A DNA stretch of 64,000 nucleotides from a virus, in the IMG/VR virus record IMGVR_UViG_3300009128_000003, positions 32,001 through 96,000 of that record, one strand, 5' to 3'. A model generated the notes under the pieces. The model worked only from the letters and a program-made list of their open reading frames with translations, made no database searches and had not been told where the DNA came from. The position numbers were made by a program, and so were the translations under genes. This document shows positions 29,238 to 51,014 of this stretch, in pieces (within the stretch, counting starts at the first letter, position 1; each line of letters opens with the position of its first letter).

Positions 29238-29663
29238 CTACTTCATCGCTTTCCAGACAGCAGAGGCGCCGCCCACTAAAGAACTAATATCAACGCCAGA
29301 ATCGGCTGGGGCCCCCAAATCAACGTTGCCGCCGCCCGGACTACTAGCTTCATACTGGGACATCGGCGCAGTTCCTTCAAACAGATTAACGCCGTTATAT
29401 GCGTCTTGTCCAATAGCTTCCATCATTTTCTTTCGCTGGGCTGCAAGCTGCTTGTTCGTTTCGCGAGTCTTTCGGGCGCGAATCTCTGCCTCTGGCTCCT
29501 GCGGTGTCTGGGGTCTTTGGACACCTTCAACCACAAGACCTCCTTGCATGCCTTTCGCTACCTCTGCTACTACATTGGACAAAAGTCCTTCTTCTATTAA
29601 AAGCTCGTGAATGCACTCTTTGACCATAGGCTTCATTAGCTCTTTAAGATCTTTCTTTTTCAT
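29238..29663 (-). CDS. Hypothetical protein with leader resembling type A tag
   Basis: ATGA overlap with upstream gene; MKKKDLKELMKPMVKECIHELLIEEG. Confidence 0.75.
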   Translation of the reverse strand: MKKKDLKELMKPMVKECIHELLIEEGLLSNVVAEVAKGMQGGLVVEGVQRPQTPQEPEAEIRARKTRETNKQLAAQRKKMMEAIGQDAYNGVNLFEGTAPMSQYEASSPGGGNVDLGAPADSGVDISSLVGGASAVWKAMK

Positions 29664-32140
29664 TTTATTCCTGCTAGCGTCTTCCAACGCTCAATTGTTT
29701 TGGATTCTTTAAGGGTTTTGCCTTCTTCGTAACCTACAGCCTGTTTCATAAACGGCTGGGACGATTTTAAACCACCACTTCGTATGCGTTCTTTAGATCT
29801 CGCGATGTGGGCAGTACGGCGCTTAGCGGCATTGGCGGCGGACTTGTCGCGGTCGGCTTGGGTTCGGCGCTGACCCAAATCGACAACTTCGCCTCCCTTT
29901 GTCTCGGGAGCCTCTTCTTCCGCTGCCTTCACTCGAACTTTTTGTAACAGATCGTTTAACAAGCCTCGGGACTGCTTCTTCTGAAAGACTCTCGCCATTC
30001 TTTCCACTTTCCCTGCTTCTACCTTGTCTCGGGTAGCTAAGCGCTCCCAAGCCTTAAGAATTTGAGTCTTCTTGGCGGTAAGGTAGTTGCTGTCAGCAAT
30101 CTTCCCCACGGCCGATTGGCGATCTCTTTCTCTAAGAAGCCTTTCGGGAAGGAATGGTCCAAAGAAATTTAGGAAGGAATTCAAATCGTCTTCAAACTTC
30201 ATTTTGGAGCCGCGAACTTGCTTGCCCCTGTTGACGTTCTTCCAGCTTCCTTTTAGCTTGTTGGTATTAAAGTCGTCTGAAAGGTAGTATACTTTGCCTT
30301 CTCCGGGGTCCGCCTCTTCTTCGGCTTCGCCTTCTGCGTCTTCTGCGCCTTCCTCGCCGGGTTCGCCTTCTGCGCCGGCGGGGGCTATATCTTCCGCCCC
30401 TTCAGGGGGAGCTTCGCCCGGCGCGGTACCGAGCATTGCGCTGAGATCTCTGAGGGGTTCAATGTACTTATCGCCTAGTTTTTTCAACTCTTCCATTCCG
30501 GGCTTGTCGGCAACCTTGTCATACAGTTCGAGCGCCTTGTTAACACCCTCTTGTACATCTTCGACCGATGCCTCGATGCCTGCTGCCTCTAGAGCATTTA
30601 TGATAGCATCCTTGGCACCTTGGGCGCCGCGGACTTTGTCCATAGCTTTAACTAGAGGTATTAACTTAAGGACCAATGGTCCAAACTTGCCAGCTTTCGC
30701 GGCGATCTTTCCAAAGGGAATGAGGGAAAACAGTGCCAATGCCGCCGATTTCAAATCCCCTTGTGCTATATTAATGAGAGATTCTGCGATAGACGCCGGT
30801 ATATTGGCGCCGGGCACCAGTGACAATACGCTAGCCAAACCTTCGACCGCTTTAACAGCGGGCGTGTTTGCTAAATCTTGAACTTTATCTATAACACTTT
30901 CGTCTTCTCCATCCGTATCGGTGGTGCCCTCTGGGTCGATTGCTGGCTCTTCAACACCGGTACCGATGTCCCAACCGCCTTCGCGCAATTGAGTCTTGCA
31001 ACAATCATAAATGGCTTGTGCAACTTCTTGGTCGGCAAAGATCTTAAAGATGCCAGAAAAGTCAACTGCATGCGACTTAGCCGGCTTTGAGTCACTTCCC
31101 TTAACTTTGCGCCCTTTGCGTGGAGATTTTTCAGGGGTAGTTACGCCGGCGATGTATTCTCGGATAGTGCTGTCTGCATCCATTTGTTTAATGATGCCGG
31201 CACTGACGCTTTGCTTGACCATATAGTCACGCAGTTCTTTATACTTCTCCGGTGCTATTTGATACTCATTCTTTATCGCCGATAAAAAGTATGCTAGTGT
31301 GTAGCCGGGATTGCTGGGCTTTGGCTTGAATTTGATTTTGCTACAGTCGCCGACCACTGCGTCCGGATATTCTTCCACGTCGACGGGGGTCGGCGCCTGA
31401 GTCCCATCTTCTGGCTCTTCCTCTTGACCGGGTGTGCCACCCTGCGGTTGTGGCTGTTGTGGCTCTTGGGGCGCTTGTGGTTCTTGGGGCTTTTGGGGTT
31501 CTTGCTGCTTGGGCTTTGATTTTTTAAACCAGTTGGGAAGGTCGTTCCCTTCTTTGCCGAAGAAGCCGGCACGTGCAAGAATCTTATAGAGATGGTCTTT
31601 GGTCTTTTGTGTAGTGAGCGCAGCGTTGAATACTTTAGCAAGATTTGGGTATTTATTTACGTCCAACTCGCCGTTGGGACCCAACTTGGGCATCCGGCTA
31701 AGAATTACAGATGCCTTGTGAATTGATTGTTCCTCGATTGTATAATTATTTCCTTGAGGGTTTGTAATAAGGTCTTCAAGTTCGTTATATAATACATCGC
31801 GCTTAACTTCTACGTTTAAAATTCGACGGATGTCGTCAATTGCCTTATAAAGAGCAGCTACGTCGTCGGCGTTATAAGTTTCAGGCTCGTTGCCTGCGCC
31901 CTCTTCCTCTCCATCGCCGCCGGCACATTTGTCGCCCGGCTTGCATACCAGATCGCCTGTATATTGATGCTTGTCATAGCTAAGTCCGTGTTTTCCTCCG
32001 GTCTTTCCCCACTTAAGTTTTCCGAAAAACTCATCAAGAGGAACATCTTCTTTGATCTTAGGTTCGACACTCTCGGCTAAAAAGCCTTTCCATGCGTCGC
32101 TGCGCTTTTTAGCGTCTTTAAAACTACTCCAGTCACTCAT
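29660..32140 (-). CDS. Large putative internal head/ejected protein with pre-toxin-like segment
   Basis: N-term DAWKGFLAE; C-term ERWKTLAGIK like the scaffold end; internal LSLVPGA..INIAQGDLKSAALALFSLIPFGK; QEPQ and E-rich linkers. Confidence 0.6.
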   Translation of the reverse strand: MSDWSSFKDAKKRSDAWKGFLAESVEPKIKEDVPLDEFFGKLKWGKTGGKHGLSYDKHQYTGDLVCKPGDKCAGGDGEEEGAGNEPETYNADDVAALYKAIDDIRRILNVEVKRDVLYNELEDLITNPQGNNYTIEEQSIHKASVILSRMPKLGPNGELDVNKYPNLAKVFNAALTTQKTKDHLYKILARAGFFGKEGNDLPNWFKKSKPKQQEPQKPQEPQAPQEPQQPQPQGGTPGQEEEPEDGTQAPTPVDVEEYPDAVVGDCSKIKFKPKPSNPGYTLAYFLSAIKNEYQIAPEKYKELRDYMVKQSVSAGIIKQMDADSTIREYIAGVTTPEKSPRKGRKVKGSDSKPAKSHAVDFSGIFKIFADQEVAQAIYDCCKTQLREGGWDIGTGVEEPAIDPEGTTDTDGEDESVIDKVQDLANTPAVKAVEGLASVLSLVPGANIPASIAESLINIAQGDLKSAALALFSLIPFGKIAAKAGKFGPLVLKLIPLVKAMDKVRGAQGAKDAIINALEAAGIEASVEDVQEGVNKALELYDKVADKPGMEELKKLGDKYIEPLRDLSAMLGTAPGEAPPEGAEDIAPAGAEGEPGEEGAEDAEGEAEEEADPGEGKVYYLSDDFNTNKLKGSWKNVNRGKQVRGSKMKFEDDLNSFLNFFGPFLPERLLRERDRQSAVGKIADSNYLTAKKTQILKAWERLATRDKVEAGKVERMARVFQKKQSRGLLNDLLQKVRVKAAEEEAPETKGGEVVDLGQRRTQADRDKSAANAAKRRTAHIARSKERIRSGGLKSSQPFMKQAVGYEEGKTLKESKTIERWKTLAGIK

Positions 32141-32738
32141 CTTCAAGTACCTCGTTTAATAATCTGTTGATGCGGTCCGCTTTGGTGAACACTCTGTTGG
32201 TGTATCCTTTAGCTTCTTTCATCATAAAGGCGCCGGGCGTGGAAGGTTCAGATACAAAATCAAAGCAGATAAGCTGGAAATCGTCTTCAACAACTGTGTT
32301 GCCGGCGGATTCCGATACAGAACCCATTCCCCGAGACGAAATGCCGATGCTTACGCCGGCTTTCACTAGGGAATTTAAGACCTGACCGGACGGAGTATCG
32401 AGCACTTTGGCTTTGCCCATCACATTTTTGCCGTCCCACCAAACTTTGGTCATCATGTGGGACGCGTTCTTAAGGTTGATCACAGAGTCGTCAGGGTGGT
32501 CCAACTCTCCCAAAGCTCGGCGCTCGCTAACTAATTTTTCATAGTTCTTTATCTCGCGCATGAGGACCTTGTGAGGATAAACTCGACCGTTGCCGTTAAC
32601 TGTGTCTGCTTTCTGAATAATTCCAGTAAGGTACATGCCGCCATCAGCGACATATGCCTTCTCTTCTTCAGTCAGCAAGTCTTGACAAATGCCGCCTTCG
32701 CAGAGTTCATAATATTCTCTAAGTAACTTCTGACCCAC
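32133..32738 (-). CDS. Prohead core protease (T4 gp21-like)
   Basis: NGNGRVYP, LGELDHP, GISSRGMGS, FDFVSEPST; likely GTG start at 32738. Confidence 0.95.
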   Translation of the reverse strand: MGQKLLREYYELCEGGICQDLLTEEEKAYVADGGMYLTGIIQKADTVNGNGRVYPHKVLMREIKNYEKLVSERRALGELDHPDDSVINLKNASHMMTKVWWDGKNVMGKAKVLDTPSGQVLNSLVKAGVSIGISSRGMGSVSESAGNTVVEDDFQLICFDFVSEPSTPGAFMMKEAKGYTNRVFTKADRINRLLNEVLEDE

Positions 32739-32740
32739 AG

Positions 32741-50349: not shown

Positions 50350-50486
50350 CTTCCTTTCCACCACTTTGTCTTTTTCTTCTCCGGAGAACATTTGCTTCCC
50401 GAGGGGCACCATTTGTATATGTTGGACAAATAATTACTAAGCTCTTCTTCGATAATATCTTTAAGTCGGGATTTGGTGATTTTCAC
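50346..50486 (-). CDS. 46-aa micro-ORF with type A leader
   Basis: GTG start after AAGGA; MKITKSRLKDIIEEELSNYLSNIYKWCPSGSKCSPEKKKTKWWKGR; ATGA overlap with next gene; absent from ORF track. Confidence 0.7.
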   Translation of the reverse strand: MKITKSRLKDIIEEELSNYLSNIYKWCPSGSKCSPEKKKTKWWKGR

Positions 50487-50501
50487 TTGTTTATTCCTTA
50501 G

Positions 50502-51014
50502 CTACTGTTCGACGATCTGGCTAACTAATATTCCGATTGCCATTAACGCCACGCCTCCGGTTAATCCCAGCGCAAATACTGCCGGCGTGGCGACTGCTGC
50601 AGCGCCGATCATCATGATTCCGCCGGCGCCGAGTCCGGTAGCTAGGGCTGCATCCGATAATGGATTACCCCCAAGCACCCCGTCGCCTTCTTGCATTGCG
50701 TCTGCCTCCGCTGCACCTTCCTGCGCAGCGGCTTGGACTTCGGGATCCTTCGCTGCCTGTTGTACAGCAGCCATGACTGCCGGACTTTGGGCGAGGACTT
50801 GAGCAAGCTCTTGTGCTTGTGTCATGTCAGGTTCGCGAGTTTGTAATCGTGGGGTTCGACGTGCGGAGGGCGACGGTGCGCCGGCGCCTACGCCAGCAAT
50901 CTCCTTCATGCGCGTGACTTCTTTTTCTTCCTTGATTACTTCTGCCTTCTCATCCATAAAGTATCGTGGGTCGATTCTCCTGACGTTTTTTCTTGGTTTT
51001 CCCCATCTGGACAT
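50502..51014 (-). CDS. 170-aa protein with type C and D tags and C-terminal Gly-rich TM hairpin
   Basis: RRIDPRYFMDEKAEVIKEE..RMKEIAGV; C-term ALATGLGAGGIMMIGAAAV..LGLTGGVALMAIGILV. Confidence 0.75.
   Translation of the reverse strand: MSRWGKPRKNVRRIDPRYFMDEKAEVIKEEKEVTRMKEIAGVGAGAPSPSARRTPRLQTREPDMTQAQELAQVLAQSPAVMAAVQQAAKDPEVQAAAQEGAAEADAMQEGDGVLGGNPLSDAALATGLGAGGIMMIGAAAVATPAVFALGLTGGVALMAIGILVSQIVEQ

What the first reader, a model, noticed from the sequence alone, without database searches (positions are those of the whole stretch)
29238..51014. Candidate capsid-addressing system: about 14 unrelated proteins share four short peptide tags
SEEN: Type A leader M-K/R-I-T/N-K-x-Q-L-K/R-x-I-I-x-E-E starts 50346-50486, 49435-50349, 49100-49438, 45368-45898, 41513-42370, 39830-40135, 39018-39275 and, degenerately, 29238-29663. 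Type B (L-x-E/N-x-W-R/K-x-F/Y-x-x-E) starts 44346-45371, 42721-43185, 33123-34052 and 29660-32140. Type C (IDPRYFMDEK..IKEE) starts 42375-42698 and 50502-51014. Type D (R-W/M-K-x-L/I-A-G-I/V) is the scaffold end and recurs in two other proteins. Beyond the tags the proteins share nothing visible. The N-terminal tags end at I/L/V-x-E sites, like those in the MCP N-terminus (RLTE, LLEG, LLRE) and throughout the scaffold. KNOWN: T4 gp21 cleaves after Glu in I/L-x-E, and T4 internal proteins are packaged via a cleaved roughly 10-residue capsid-targeting sequence (MKTYQEFIAE), which WKGFLAE and WRKFVNE resemble. INFERENCE: these are portable tags that dock cargo on the prohead core, are clipped by the gp21-like protease and let a diverse, swappable protein set be injected with the DNA.
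Basis: partly seen in the sequence, partly recalled or inferred. Interest (0 to 1): 0.9.

Follow-up and report, generated by a model that had tools for sequence, protein, structure and literature searches.

The report
Portable head-loading tags in ocean phages
A T4-like ocean phage puts the same few short peptide tags on a dozen unrelated proteins, and the sequence evidence suggests the tags load these proteins into the phage head and are then clipped off, as in phage T4 but on a far larger scale.

Summary
The window is part of a 115-kb uncultured T4-like myovirus with a gp21-type (S77) prohead protease. Thirteen proteins firmly carry one of four short tags, and their bodies are unrelated.

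The tags are conserved as protein, not as DNA, and they are widespread. A profile of tag A matches 11,062 protein clusters in public data.

Five indirect lines support T4-CTS-like head targeting followed by cleavage:
- Tags A, B and C each end in aliphatic-x-Glu, the T4 gp21 site. The MCP has LRE60 where T4 gp23 is cut.
- Homologous bodies carry different tags, swapped at that site.
- Tag D is the conserved C-terminus of the scaffold. It also ends the 828-aa protein and 99 of 120 homologs of the ParB-like protein.
- Tagged bodies avoid [LIV]-x-E but not [LIV]-x-D; untagged ORFs do not.
- A late-promoter-like motif, otherwise found before structural genes, precedes the first tagged island here and in three relatives.

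Close relatives carry different tagged genes between conserved backbone genes.

Verdict: a new, much expanded variant of the T4 capsid-targeting system, confidence about 0.6. First readers of this scan flagged the same leaders in at least four other genomes.

The parts
50346..50486 (-). 46-aa protein with type A leader (GTG start)
   Evidence: Tag HMM 27.4 bits. A homolog with the same leader is in L010.
49435..50349 (-). 304-aa protein with type A leader MKITKTQLKQIIKEE
   Evidence: HMM 37.9 bits. No Pfam or PHROG hit. Its ATG overlaps the upstream stop codon as ATGA.
49100..49438 (-). 112-aa acidic protein with type A leader
   Evidence: HMM 30.1 bits. Its only [LIV]xE site is in the leader.
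45368..45898 (-). 176-aa protein with type A leader
   Evidence: HMM 32.9 bits.
41513..42370 (-). 285-aa protein with type A leader
   Evidence: HMM 31.1 bits. Shares a second motif (..DVSVDYLAA..) with tagged proteins of other contigs.
39830..40135 (-). 101-aa protein with type A leader MRINKSQLKQIIRE
   Evidence: HMM 27.8 bits.
39018..39275 (-). 85-aa acidic protein with type A leader, overlapping the start of the large terminase gene
   Evidence: HMM 23.6 bits. A homolog sits in the same place in relative L251.
44346..45371 (-). 341-aa protein with type B leader MKLLMENWRKFVNE and a ParB/sulfiredoxin-like C-terminal domain
   Evidence: HMM B 29.9 bits. AF2 model pLDDT 89.5, leader is helix 2-21. 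Weak ParB/Srx fold matches. Homologs carry A-like or other leaders, and 99 of 120 carry a C-terminal type D tag.
42721..43185 (-). 154-aa acidic protein with type B leader MNKLFENWRKYTNE
   Evidence: HMM B 22.6 bits. Its body has a homolog behind a type C leader in L251.
42375..42698 (-). 107-aa protein with type C leader MAFRKNKKFIDPRYFMDEKTDIIKEE
   Evidence: About 25 more C-tagged ORFs with varied bodies are in the fetched loci.
50502..51014 (-). 170-aa protein with a type C leader followed by an internal type D motif (RMKEIAGV) and a hydrophobic C-terminus
   Evidence: It is the first gene after the late-promoter-like motif at 51058.
51051..51058 (-). Late-promoter-like motif CTATTTAC inside the 3' end of the primase gene, 44 nt before the tagged island
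   Evidence: The motif is 12:1 strand-biased in the window and 25:0 in six relatives, mostly 24-70 nt before structural genes. The copy after primase is conserved in three relatives.
29660..32146 (-). 828-aa protein after the protease gene, ending in type D (ERWKTLAGIK*), with a weak B-like leader
   Evidence: Its homolog in L082 ends RWKALAGIK*. Relatives have B-like or A-like leaders at this position.
21326..22471 (-). gp22-like scaffold ending in type D (ERMKRLAGIK*)
   Evidence: Lies directly upstream of the MCP gene. It is acidic and has 18 [LIV]xE sites. The C-terminal motif is conserved in 18 aligned scaffolds, in immuto and in Mel-JY01.
32133..32759 (-). T4 gp21-like prohead protease (Peptidase_S77)
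   Evidence: Pfam E 6.7e-35. 34% identical to T4 gp21, and the segments LGELDHP and GISSRGMGS match T4 gp21's LGELNHP and GVSSRGLGS.
19489..21294 (-). gp23-like major capsid protein; LRE60 aligns with the T4 gp23 site LTE65
   Evidence: Pfam Gp23 E 3e-72. Alignment to T4 gp23.
29238..29663 (-). 141-aa conserved head-module protein with its own A-like leader ending LIEEG
   Evidence: Not found by HMM A. Homologs sit in the same position in L238, L241 and L244. Densest in [LIV]xE: 8 sites against 2.7 expected.
33123..34052 (-). 309-aa protein between portal and protease with a doubtful B-like start (MNGWRGYLLQE)
   Evidence: HMM B only 1.8 bits.
35402..37429 (-). T4 gp20-like portal
   Evidence: Pfam Portal_T4 E 4e-79.

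Best explanation
The four motifs are portable address tags of a T4-type head-assembly system. Inferred: the N-terminal leaders A, B and C act like the T4 capsid-targeting sequence (CTS). They would dock the newly made protein onto the scaffolding core of the prohead and then be removed by the gp21-like S77 protease at the aliphatic-x-Glu site that ends each leader. That would leave the free body inside the head, to leave with the DNA at infection. Also inferred: tag D copies the scaffold's own C-terminal peptide and docks cargo where the scaffold docks. In the ParB-like family it follows an [IV]-x-E site, so it could be clipped off as well. Shown here: the tags exist, are conserved as protein, are portable and occur on thousands of unrelated bodies. 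They end in cleavage-type sites, co-occur with an S77 protease, and mark hypervariable gene islands. Not shown: packaging, cleavage and injection.
For: (1) T4-like background. S77 protease, 34% identical to T4 gp21. Portal and MCP are of T4 type. 17 of 24 large tag-bearing contigs, including both complete ones, have an S77 protease.

(2) Cleavage-type ends. In tag A, I12 and E14 are invariant in all seven window copies, and a second L20-x-E22 is common in other contigs. In tag B, position 12 is L/I/V/M in about 92% and position 14 is E in 88% of 227 copies, and conservation stops there. Tag C is followed by [LI]-x-E and a small residue. MCP LRE60 aligns with the T4 gp23 cleavage site LTE65. 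In T4, CTS processing depends on residues 8 and 10, the matching positions (PMC9026906).

(3) Portability. 203 tag A bodies fall into 137 blastp clusters, 117 of them singletons. Homologs of the ParB-like body carry B, A-like or other leaders, joined to the body right after the [LIV]-x-E. A homolog of the B-tagged 42721 body sits behind a C leader.

(4) Link to the head. Tag D is the conserved extreme C-terminus of the scaffold in 18 relatives, immuto and Mel-JY01. It also ends the 828-aa protein. 99 of 120 ParB-like homologs have it, 98 of them with E and 96 with I/V/L in cleavage register just before it. A-like leaders head ORFs between portal and protease in L247 and immuto.

(5) Motif avoidance. 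O/E of [LIV]xE divided by O/E of [LIV]xD is 0.75 (95% CI 0.63-0.87) in A bodies and 0.69 (0.63-0.76) in B bodies. It is 1.04 (1.01-1.08) in untagged ORFs of the same loci.

(6) Timing. The motif ACTATTTA[TAC], otherwise found before structural genes, lies 42-44 nt before the first tagged ORF after primase in the window and three relatives, whichever tag that ORF has.

(7) Hypervariable islands between conserved backbone genes, as described for T-even internal proteins (PMC3012670, PMC9026906).
Against: No virion proteomics or N-terminal data exist for any phage with these tags. Most tagged genes lie among replication and recombination genes, downstream of strong sigma-70-like promoters at 52006 and 49083, and only the first island has the late-type motif. 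Tags A to C have no detectable sequence homology to the T4 CTS. Tag A has none to the scaffold N-terminus either (hhalign probability 1%). Tag A is conserved far more strictly over about 15 residues than T4 targeting needs, so another constraint may act. Many B-tagged bodies are ordinary enzymes (HAD phosphatases, kinases, Nudix), which could equally be gathered in a cytoplasmic complex. The avoidance signal is modest and could be confounded by disorder or composition, and the B bodies include homologous families. The receptor is unknown.
Confidence: 0.6

Rival explanations
1. The leaders are docking helices for a cytoplasmic hub rather than the prohead. The hub could be a replication or nucleotide-metabolism factory, the clade's conserved tubulin/FtsZ-like filament, or a clamp. 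The [LIV]-x-E ending would then simply be part of an amphipathic acidic helix.
For: Tagged genes are interleaved with primase, an SbcCD fusion, a ParB-like protein and a tubulin-like gene, behind sigma-70-like promoters. B-tagged bodies are often nucleic-acid or nucleotide enzymes. The tubulin-like protein is found in 11 of 24 tag-bearing contigs, including both complete ones, and is 91-95% identical in several.
Against: It does not explain why [LIV]xE, but not [LIV]xD, is avoided in the bodies. It does not explain why tag D equals the scaffold's C-terminus, or why A-like leaders occur on ORFs between portal and protease. It also leaves the late-type motif before the tagged island unexplained.
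Confidence: 0.15
2. The tags do bring the proteins into the prohead, but the proteins are assembly or DNA-condensing core components, like T4 gp67, gp68 or IPIII. They would be degraded or stay structural, not serve as an injected effector set.
For: A-like and B-like leaders occur on conserved head-module proteins (29238-29663, the post-protease protein, ORFs before the protease in L247). Most A bodies are small, have no domain hit and are often acidic. T4 IPIII affects head assembly (PMC9026906).
Against: Turnover of tagged genes between close relatives and enzyme bodies such as protein kinases, Nudix, a C5 methyltransferase and GNAT fit accessory effectors better than structural parts. Avoidance of cleavage motifs in the bodies suggests they are meant to survive the protease.
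Confidence: 0.15
3. The conserved leader is a degradation or timing signal read by a host protease such as ClpXP, or an expression element acting on translation initiation. It would not be a localisation tag.
For: It sits at the extreme N-terminus, begins with Lys-rich codons, and is found on many small accessory genes.
Against: The DNA varies synonymously while the peptide is kept for 15-22 residues. Internal copies without a start codon occur in multi-module proteins (P0126, P0133). Three unrelated leader types and a C-terminal tag are interchangeable on one body family.
Confidence: 0.05

Closest known systems
Capsid-targeting sequence (CTS) of phage T4 internal proteins IPI, IPII, IPIII and Alt
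   Same: A short N-terminal propeptide is the only feature shared by otherwise diverse proteins. It ends in aliphatic-x-Glu, the site cut by the gp21-type protease. The cargo genes are variable between related phages. Alt has propeptides at both ends, as the ParB-like family here would (PMC9026906, PMC5694885, PMC3012670).
   Different: No sequence homology to MKTYQEFIAE. The leaders are longer (14-29 against 10-19 residues) and come in at least three N-terminal classes plus a C-terminal one. There are 13 tagged genes in this window and 11,062 matching clusters in public data. Bodies include many enzymes. Nothing has been shown experimentally.
C-terminal coat-binding end of phage scaffolding proteins (e.g. 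P22) and C-terminal cargo-loading peptides of encapsulins
   Same: Tag D is a roughly 10-residue peptide at the extreme C-terminus. It is shared by the scaffold and by non-scaffold proteins of a virus with an HK97-fold shell. This is the logic by which encapsulin cargo binds the shell interior.
   Different: No sequence likeness to encapsulin peptides (from my own knowledge, not tested). Binding to the MCP or portal was not tested. In the ParB-like family a cleavage-type site precedes the tag, which suggests release after docking.
Propeptide-bearing ejection and inner-body proteins of giant phages (phiKZ, 201phi2-1, SPN3US)
   Same: Many head proteins are processed after Glu in a short motif by a gp21-related protease. 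Paralogs share identical N-terminal propeptides (PMC5694885).
   Different: Those propeptides are long and mostly family-specific. The motif there is A/S/G-x-E. No single leader is spread over hundreds of unrelated bodies.

Membership tests
T4-type capsid-targeting sequence system | Short N-terminal leader shared by otherwise unrelated proteins of one phage | tested here: met
   Seven A, two B and two C copies at start codons. Bodies are unrelated.
T4-type capsid-targeting sequence system | Leader ends in the prohead-protease site (aliphatic at P3, Glu at P1) | tested here: met
   I12-x-E14 is invariant in the window's A copies. In B, L/I/V/M12 about 92% and E14 88%. C is followed by [LI]-x-E.
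T4-type capsid-targeting sequence system | Phage encodes a gp21-family (S77) prohead protease and a gp22-like scaffold core | tested here: met
   17 of 24 large tag-bearing contigs have an S77 protease.
T4-type capsid-targeting sequence system | Sequence homology of the leader to the T4 CTS (MKTYQEFIAE) | tested here: not met
   Only the pattern is shared (M-K start, amphipathic, I-x-E end). No alignable similarity. tblastn with the 20-residue tag and with one whole tagged protein found nothing among GenBank phages.
T4-type capsid-targeting sequence system | Leader is sufficient for incorporation into the prohead core | not testable with these tools
T4-type capsid-targeting sequence system | Leader is removed by the protease in the prohead | tested here: inconclusive
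   No proteomics. Indirect support: specific avoidance of [LIV]xE in bodies, and tag-swap junctions that coincide with the site.
T4-type capsid-targeting sequence system | Cargo set varies between related phages | tested here: met
   Relatives with TerL 84-86% and tubulin 93-94% identical carry different tagged ORFs.
Scaffold-mimicking or encapsulin-like C-terminal loading peptide (tag D) | Same terminal peptide on the scaffold and on non-scaffold proteins | tested here: met
Scaffold-mimicking or encapsulin-like C-terminal loading peptide (tag D) | Peptide binds the inner face of the shell protein or the portal | not testable with these tools
No structure is available.

The most novel reading that the evidence does not exclude
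A large clade of uncultured ocean T4-like phages uses a modular address code of interchangeable N-terminal leaders (A, B, C and others) and a scaffold-mimicking C-terminal tag. Each is removable at a gp21-type site. The code would load thousands of different small proteins and enzymes (kinases, phosphatases, Nudix, methyltransferases, ParB-like proteins) into the head for injection. If so, the tag alone would identify a phage's injected effector set from sequence.
Probability: 0.45. Interest if true: 0.85.

Novelty: new variant of a known kind. Interest (0 to 1): 0.7.

Why it matters
If the tags do what the sequence evidence suggests, they give a sequence-only handle on proteins that ocean phages carry into their hosts. 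That class is known experimentally from only a few phages (T4, P1, N4, phiKZ-like) and is rich in anti-defence and host-takeover functions. More than 11,000 tagged protein clusters, nearly all of unknown function, would become candidates at once. The tags would also offer new short peptides for loading foreign proteins into phage heads. The pairing of an N-terminal leader with a C-terminal scaffold mimic, each next to a cleavage-type site, would add a dock-then-release principle to what is known of head assembly.

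Tried and rejected
No binding test was made.
- The search for related loci with the seven-tag alignment failed for lack of a conserved stretch. I used degenerate DNA patterns instead.
- tblastn with the 20-residue tag, one whole A-tagged protein and the ParB-like protein found nothing among GenBank phages.
- Literal motif strings are absent from the paper library.
- The idea that tag A copies the scaffold N-terminus, as the T4 CTS loosely resembles gp22's MLKEQLIAE, was tested by profile comparison and not supported (probability 1%). The genome-wide HMM scan did not pick up the scaffold either.
- Pfam and PHROGs give nothing for the window's tagged proteins.
- Foldseek gave only weak ParB/sulfiredoxin matches for the 44346-45371 model.
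- Co-occurrence with the tubulin-like gene could not separate the hypotheses, because both complete genomes have it.
- Conservation at the DNA level (recombination linker or regulatory element) was considered and rejected because of synonymous variation and the lack of a shared upstream motif.
- Paralogy of the bodies was rejected.

Full report
**Setting**

The window is bases 32001-96000 of a 115,050-bp IMG/VR virus record estimated 61% complete. All long genes lie on the minus strand. It is a distant T4-like myovirus:
- The large terminase (37438-39021) is 48% identical to that of Flavobacterium phage immuto and 44% to Microcystis phage Mel-JY01.
- 35402-37429 is a T4 gp20-type portal, and 19489-21294 is a gp23-type major capsid protein.
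- 32133-32759 is a Peptidase_S77 prohead protease (E 6.7e-35). It is 34% identical to T4 gp21 and matches it over the LGELDHP and GISSRGMGS segments.
- The acidic 381-aa protein directly upstream of the MCP gene (21326-22471) is the gp22-like scaffold.

**Check of the observation**

A regex scan and then an HMM scan of all six frames of the whole genome find type A seven times. Every copy is at a start codon on the coding strand, between window 39 and 50.5 kb, scoring 23.6-37.9 bits.

- The eighth, 'degenerate' copy (29238-29663) is not found by the HMM. It belongs to a separate, conserved head-module family whose members keep their own A-like leader ending LIEEG.
- Type B is solid on 44346-45371 and 42721-43185. 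It is weak on 33123-34052 and undetected on the 828-aa protein. Relatives of the 828-aa protein do start with a B-like ..DWRQYLES...
- Type C is present on 42375-42698 and 50502-51014.
- Type D ends the 828-aa protein and the scaffold, and occurs once internally in 50502-51014.

With tags removed, the bodies show no similarity to each other (best E 0.16). The DNA under tag A differs by synonymous changes and there is no shared upstream motif, so the peptide is what selection keeps.

**Spread**

The fetched loci hold 237 A-tagged ORFs, median 112 aa, with up to five in 4.7 kb.
- A profile of 146 tag A N-termini matches 11,062 representatives of 50%-identity clusters at E <= 0.001 among 1.84 billion proteins.
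- Some of these proteins carry two to four copies of the tag, including internal copies with no methionine. The peptide therefore need not be at an N-terminus.
- Type C heads about 25 further ORFs in the fetched loci.
- Among cultured phages, HTVC008M and Mel-JY01 have no A tag. Immuto has four MKKS(Q/E)-type variants, and the 484-kb uncultured phage LR756508 has eleven.
- I found no paper that contains the motif strings.

**What the tags sit on**

- 203 A bodies fall into 137 blastp clusters, 117 of them singletons. 92 of the longer ones have almost no Pfam hit.
- B bodies are often enzymes: HAD phosphatases, protein kinases, Zeta/AAA_33 kinases, Nudix, a cyclic phosphodiesterase, a C5 DNA methyltransferase and GNAT.
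- The window's B-tagged 341-aa protein folds confidently (pLDDT 89.5). The leader forms a separate helix (residues 2-21), and the C-terminal domain weakly resembles ParB/sulfiredoxin.

**Evidence that bears on mechanism**

1. *Each N-terminal tag ends in the T4 protease motif.* In tag A, I12 and E14 are invariant in the window, and a second L20-x-E22 is common elsewhere. In 227 B copies, position 12 is L/I/V/M in about 92% and position 14 is E in 88%, and conservation stops there. C is followed by [LI]-x-E and a small residue. The retrieval patterns fixed some of these positions, so the percentages are partly biased. The MCP has LRE60 exactly where T4 gp23 has its maturation site LTE65. In T4, CTS processing depends on residues 8 and 10, the corresponding positions, and an Asp at 10 blocks cleavage but not targeting (PMC9026906).

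2. *The tags are interchangeable.* The ParB-like body has 136 homologs. Their leaders are B, A-like (for example MRLTSEQLRQVINEEISLLIE) or other types. The junction with the conserved body falls right after the [LIV]-x-E. A homolog of the B-tagged 42721 body sits behind a C leader in a relative, although an extra linker of about 60 residues lies between them.

3. *Tag D is the scaffold's own end.* It is conserved in 18 aligned scaffolds and in immuto and Mel-JY01. It also ends the 828-aa protein, and 99 of 120 ParB-like homologs have it. In 98 of those 99 a Glu, and in 96 an I/V/L, stand in cleavage register just before it. So one body family carries a leader at one end and a scaffold mimic at the other, each next to a cleavage-type site. 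This recalls T4 Alt, which loses propeptides from both ends (PMC5694885).

4. *Motif avoidance.* Relative to composition, [LIV]xE is under-represented in tagged bodies while [LIV]xD, [LIV]xK and E-x-[LIV] are over-represented. The E-to-D ratio of observed over expected is:

| Set | Ratio | 95% bootstrap CI |
|---|---|---|
| A bodies (158) | 0.75 | 0.63-0.87 |
| B bodies (179) | 0.69 | 0.63-0.76 |
| Untagged ORFs, same loci (2045) | 1.04 | 1.01-1.08 |

. This is what one expects of proteins that must survive next to an [LIV]-x-E-specific protease. Caveats: the effect is modest, the B bodies include homologous families, and disorder was not controlled.

5. *Timing.* ACTATTTA[TAC] is 12:1 strand-biased in the window and 25:0 in six relatives. 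It lies mostly 24-70 nt before structural genes such as the scaffold, sheath and fibre-like genes. One copy sits inside the 3' end of the primase gene, 42-44 nt before the first tagged ORF. That copy is conserved in three relatives, where the first ORF carries a B, a C or an A-like leader.

6. *Hypervariable islands.* Relatives with TerL 84-86% and tubulin 93-94% identical have different numbers, orders and bodies of tagged ORFs between the same backbone genes. T-even phages show the same pattern: their internal proteins differ and share only the CTS (PMC3012670, PMC9026906).

**Against**

- Most tagged genes lie among replication and recombination genes, behind strong sigma-70-like promoters at 52006 and 49083.
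- Tag A has no detectable similarity to the scaffold N-terminus or to the T4 CTS.
- The near-invariance of 15 residues exceeds what T4 targeting needs.
- Enzymes as cargo could equally be gathered in a cytoplasmic complex, and the clade's conserved tubulin-like protein cannot be excluded as a hub.

**Verdict**

The best reading is a much expanded, multi-class variant of the T4 capsid-targeting and processing system, with an added scaffold-mimicking C-terminal tag. My confidence is about 0.6. It is a new variant of a known kind, not a member by homology. First readers of this scan noted the same leaders in at least four other genomes; those notes are unchecked and I did not count them as evidence.

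Noticed in passing
window 28985-29230 (-): An 81-aa basic protein matching ribosomal protein S21 (Pfam E 4.9e-07), encoded inside the head module. Mel-JY01 has an annotated S21 at the same position after its protease gene.
   Followed up: partly
window 43182-44330 (-): A tubulin/FtsZ-family GTPase (Pfam E 1.4e-08). It is 91-95% identical in several relatives whose other genes are much more diverged, and both complete tag-bearing genomes have it. Its role in a T4-like phage is unknown.
   Followed up: partly
window 45911-49036 (-): A single 1041-aa protein that fuses an SbcD-like metallophosphatase with an SbcC/SMC-like ATPase. It is preceded by an 11-of-12 sigma-70-like promoter at 49083-49055.
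   Followed up: no
window 52055-52609 (-): An FKBP-type peptidyl-prolyl isomerase (Pfam E 6e-22) with its own sigma-70-like promoter.
   Followed up: no
window, e.g. 62432, 57210, 28984, 25377, 22510, 17815, 15083 (-): ACTATTTA[TAC] looks like this clade's late promoter. Strand bias is 12:1 here and 25:0 in six relatives, mostly 24-70 nt before structural genes. It differs from the T4 motif TATAAATA, which stands only before the MCP gene (21315).
   Followed up: partly
proteins P0121, P0126, P0133: Metagenomic proteins with two to four tag A copies in one reading frame, some internal and without Met. They may be multi-module polyproteins cut apart by the protease, or gene-calling fusions.
   Followed up: partly
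homologs of window 44346-45371: Further leader types on the same body family: MKSLKDVYGH..KKLTAESLRKIINEE (a double leader), MLKLKSLLKESKLILEF, and MNEMQLRRFVRKVIRERL.
   Followed up: no
window 40501-41469 (-): Three small genes with a signal peptide or transmembrane segments. They are conserved in all relatives between the tagged islands and look like a lysis cassette. In L252 a late-type motif precedes the first of them.
   Followed up: no
window 22588-28946 (-): Six fibre-like, repeat-rich genes plus the 828-aa protein and S21 are inserted between the protease and scaffold genes. Those two genes are nearly adjacent in immuto.
   Followed up: no
window 41513-42370, 45368-45898 and 49435-50349 (-): Three A-tagged proteins contain a second, weak internal half-motif (LIKVIKEE, IKDIIREVLQE, MLKIVKEEVE; HMM 2.5-5.6 bits). 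These may be extra cleavage or docking sites, or chance.
   Followed up: no
window 2-4462 (-): One open frame of at least 1487 aa runs off the start of the window, so a very large gene continues upstream.
   Followed up: no
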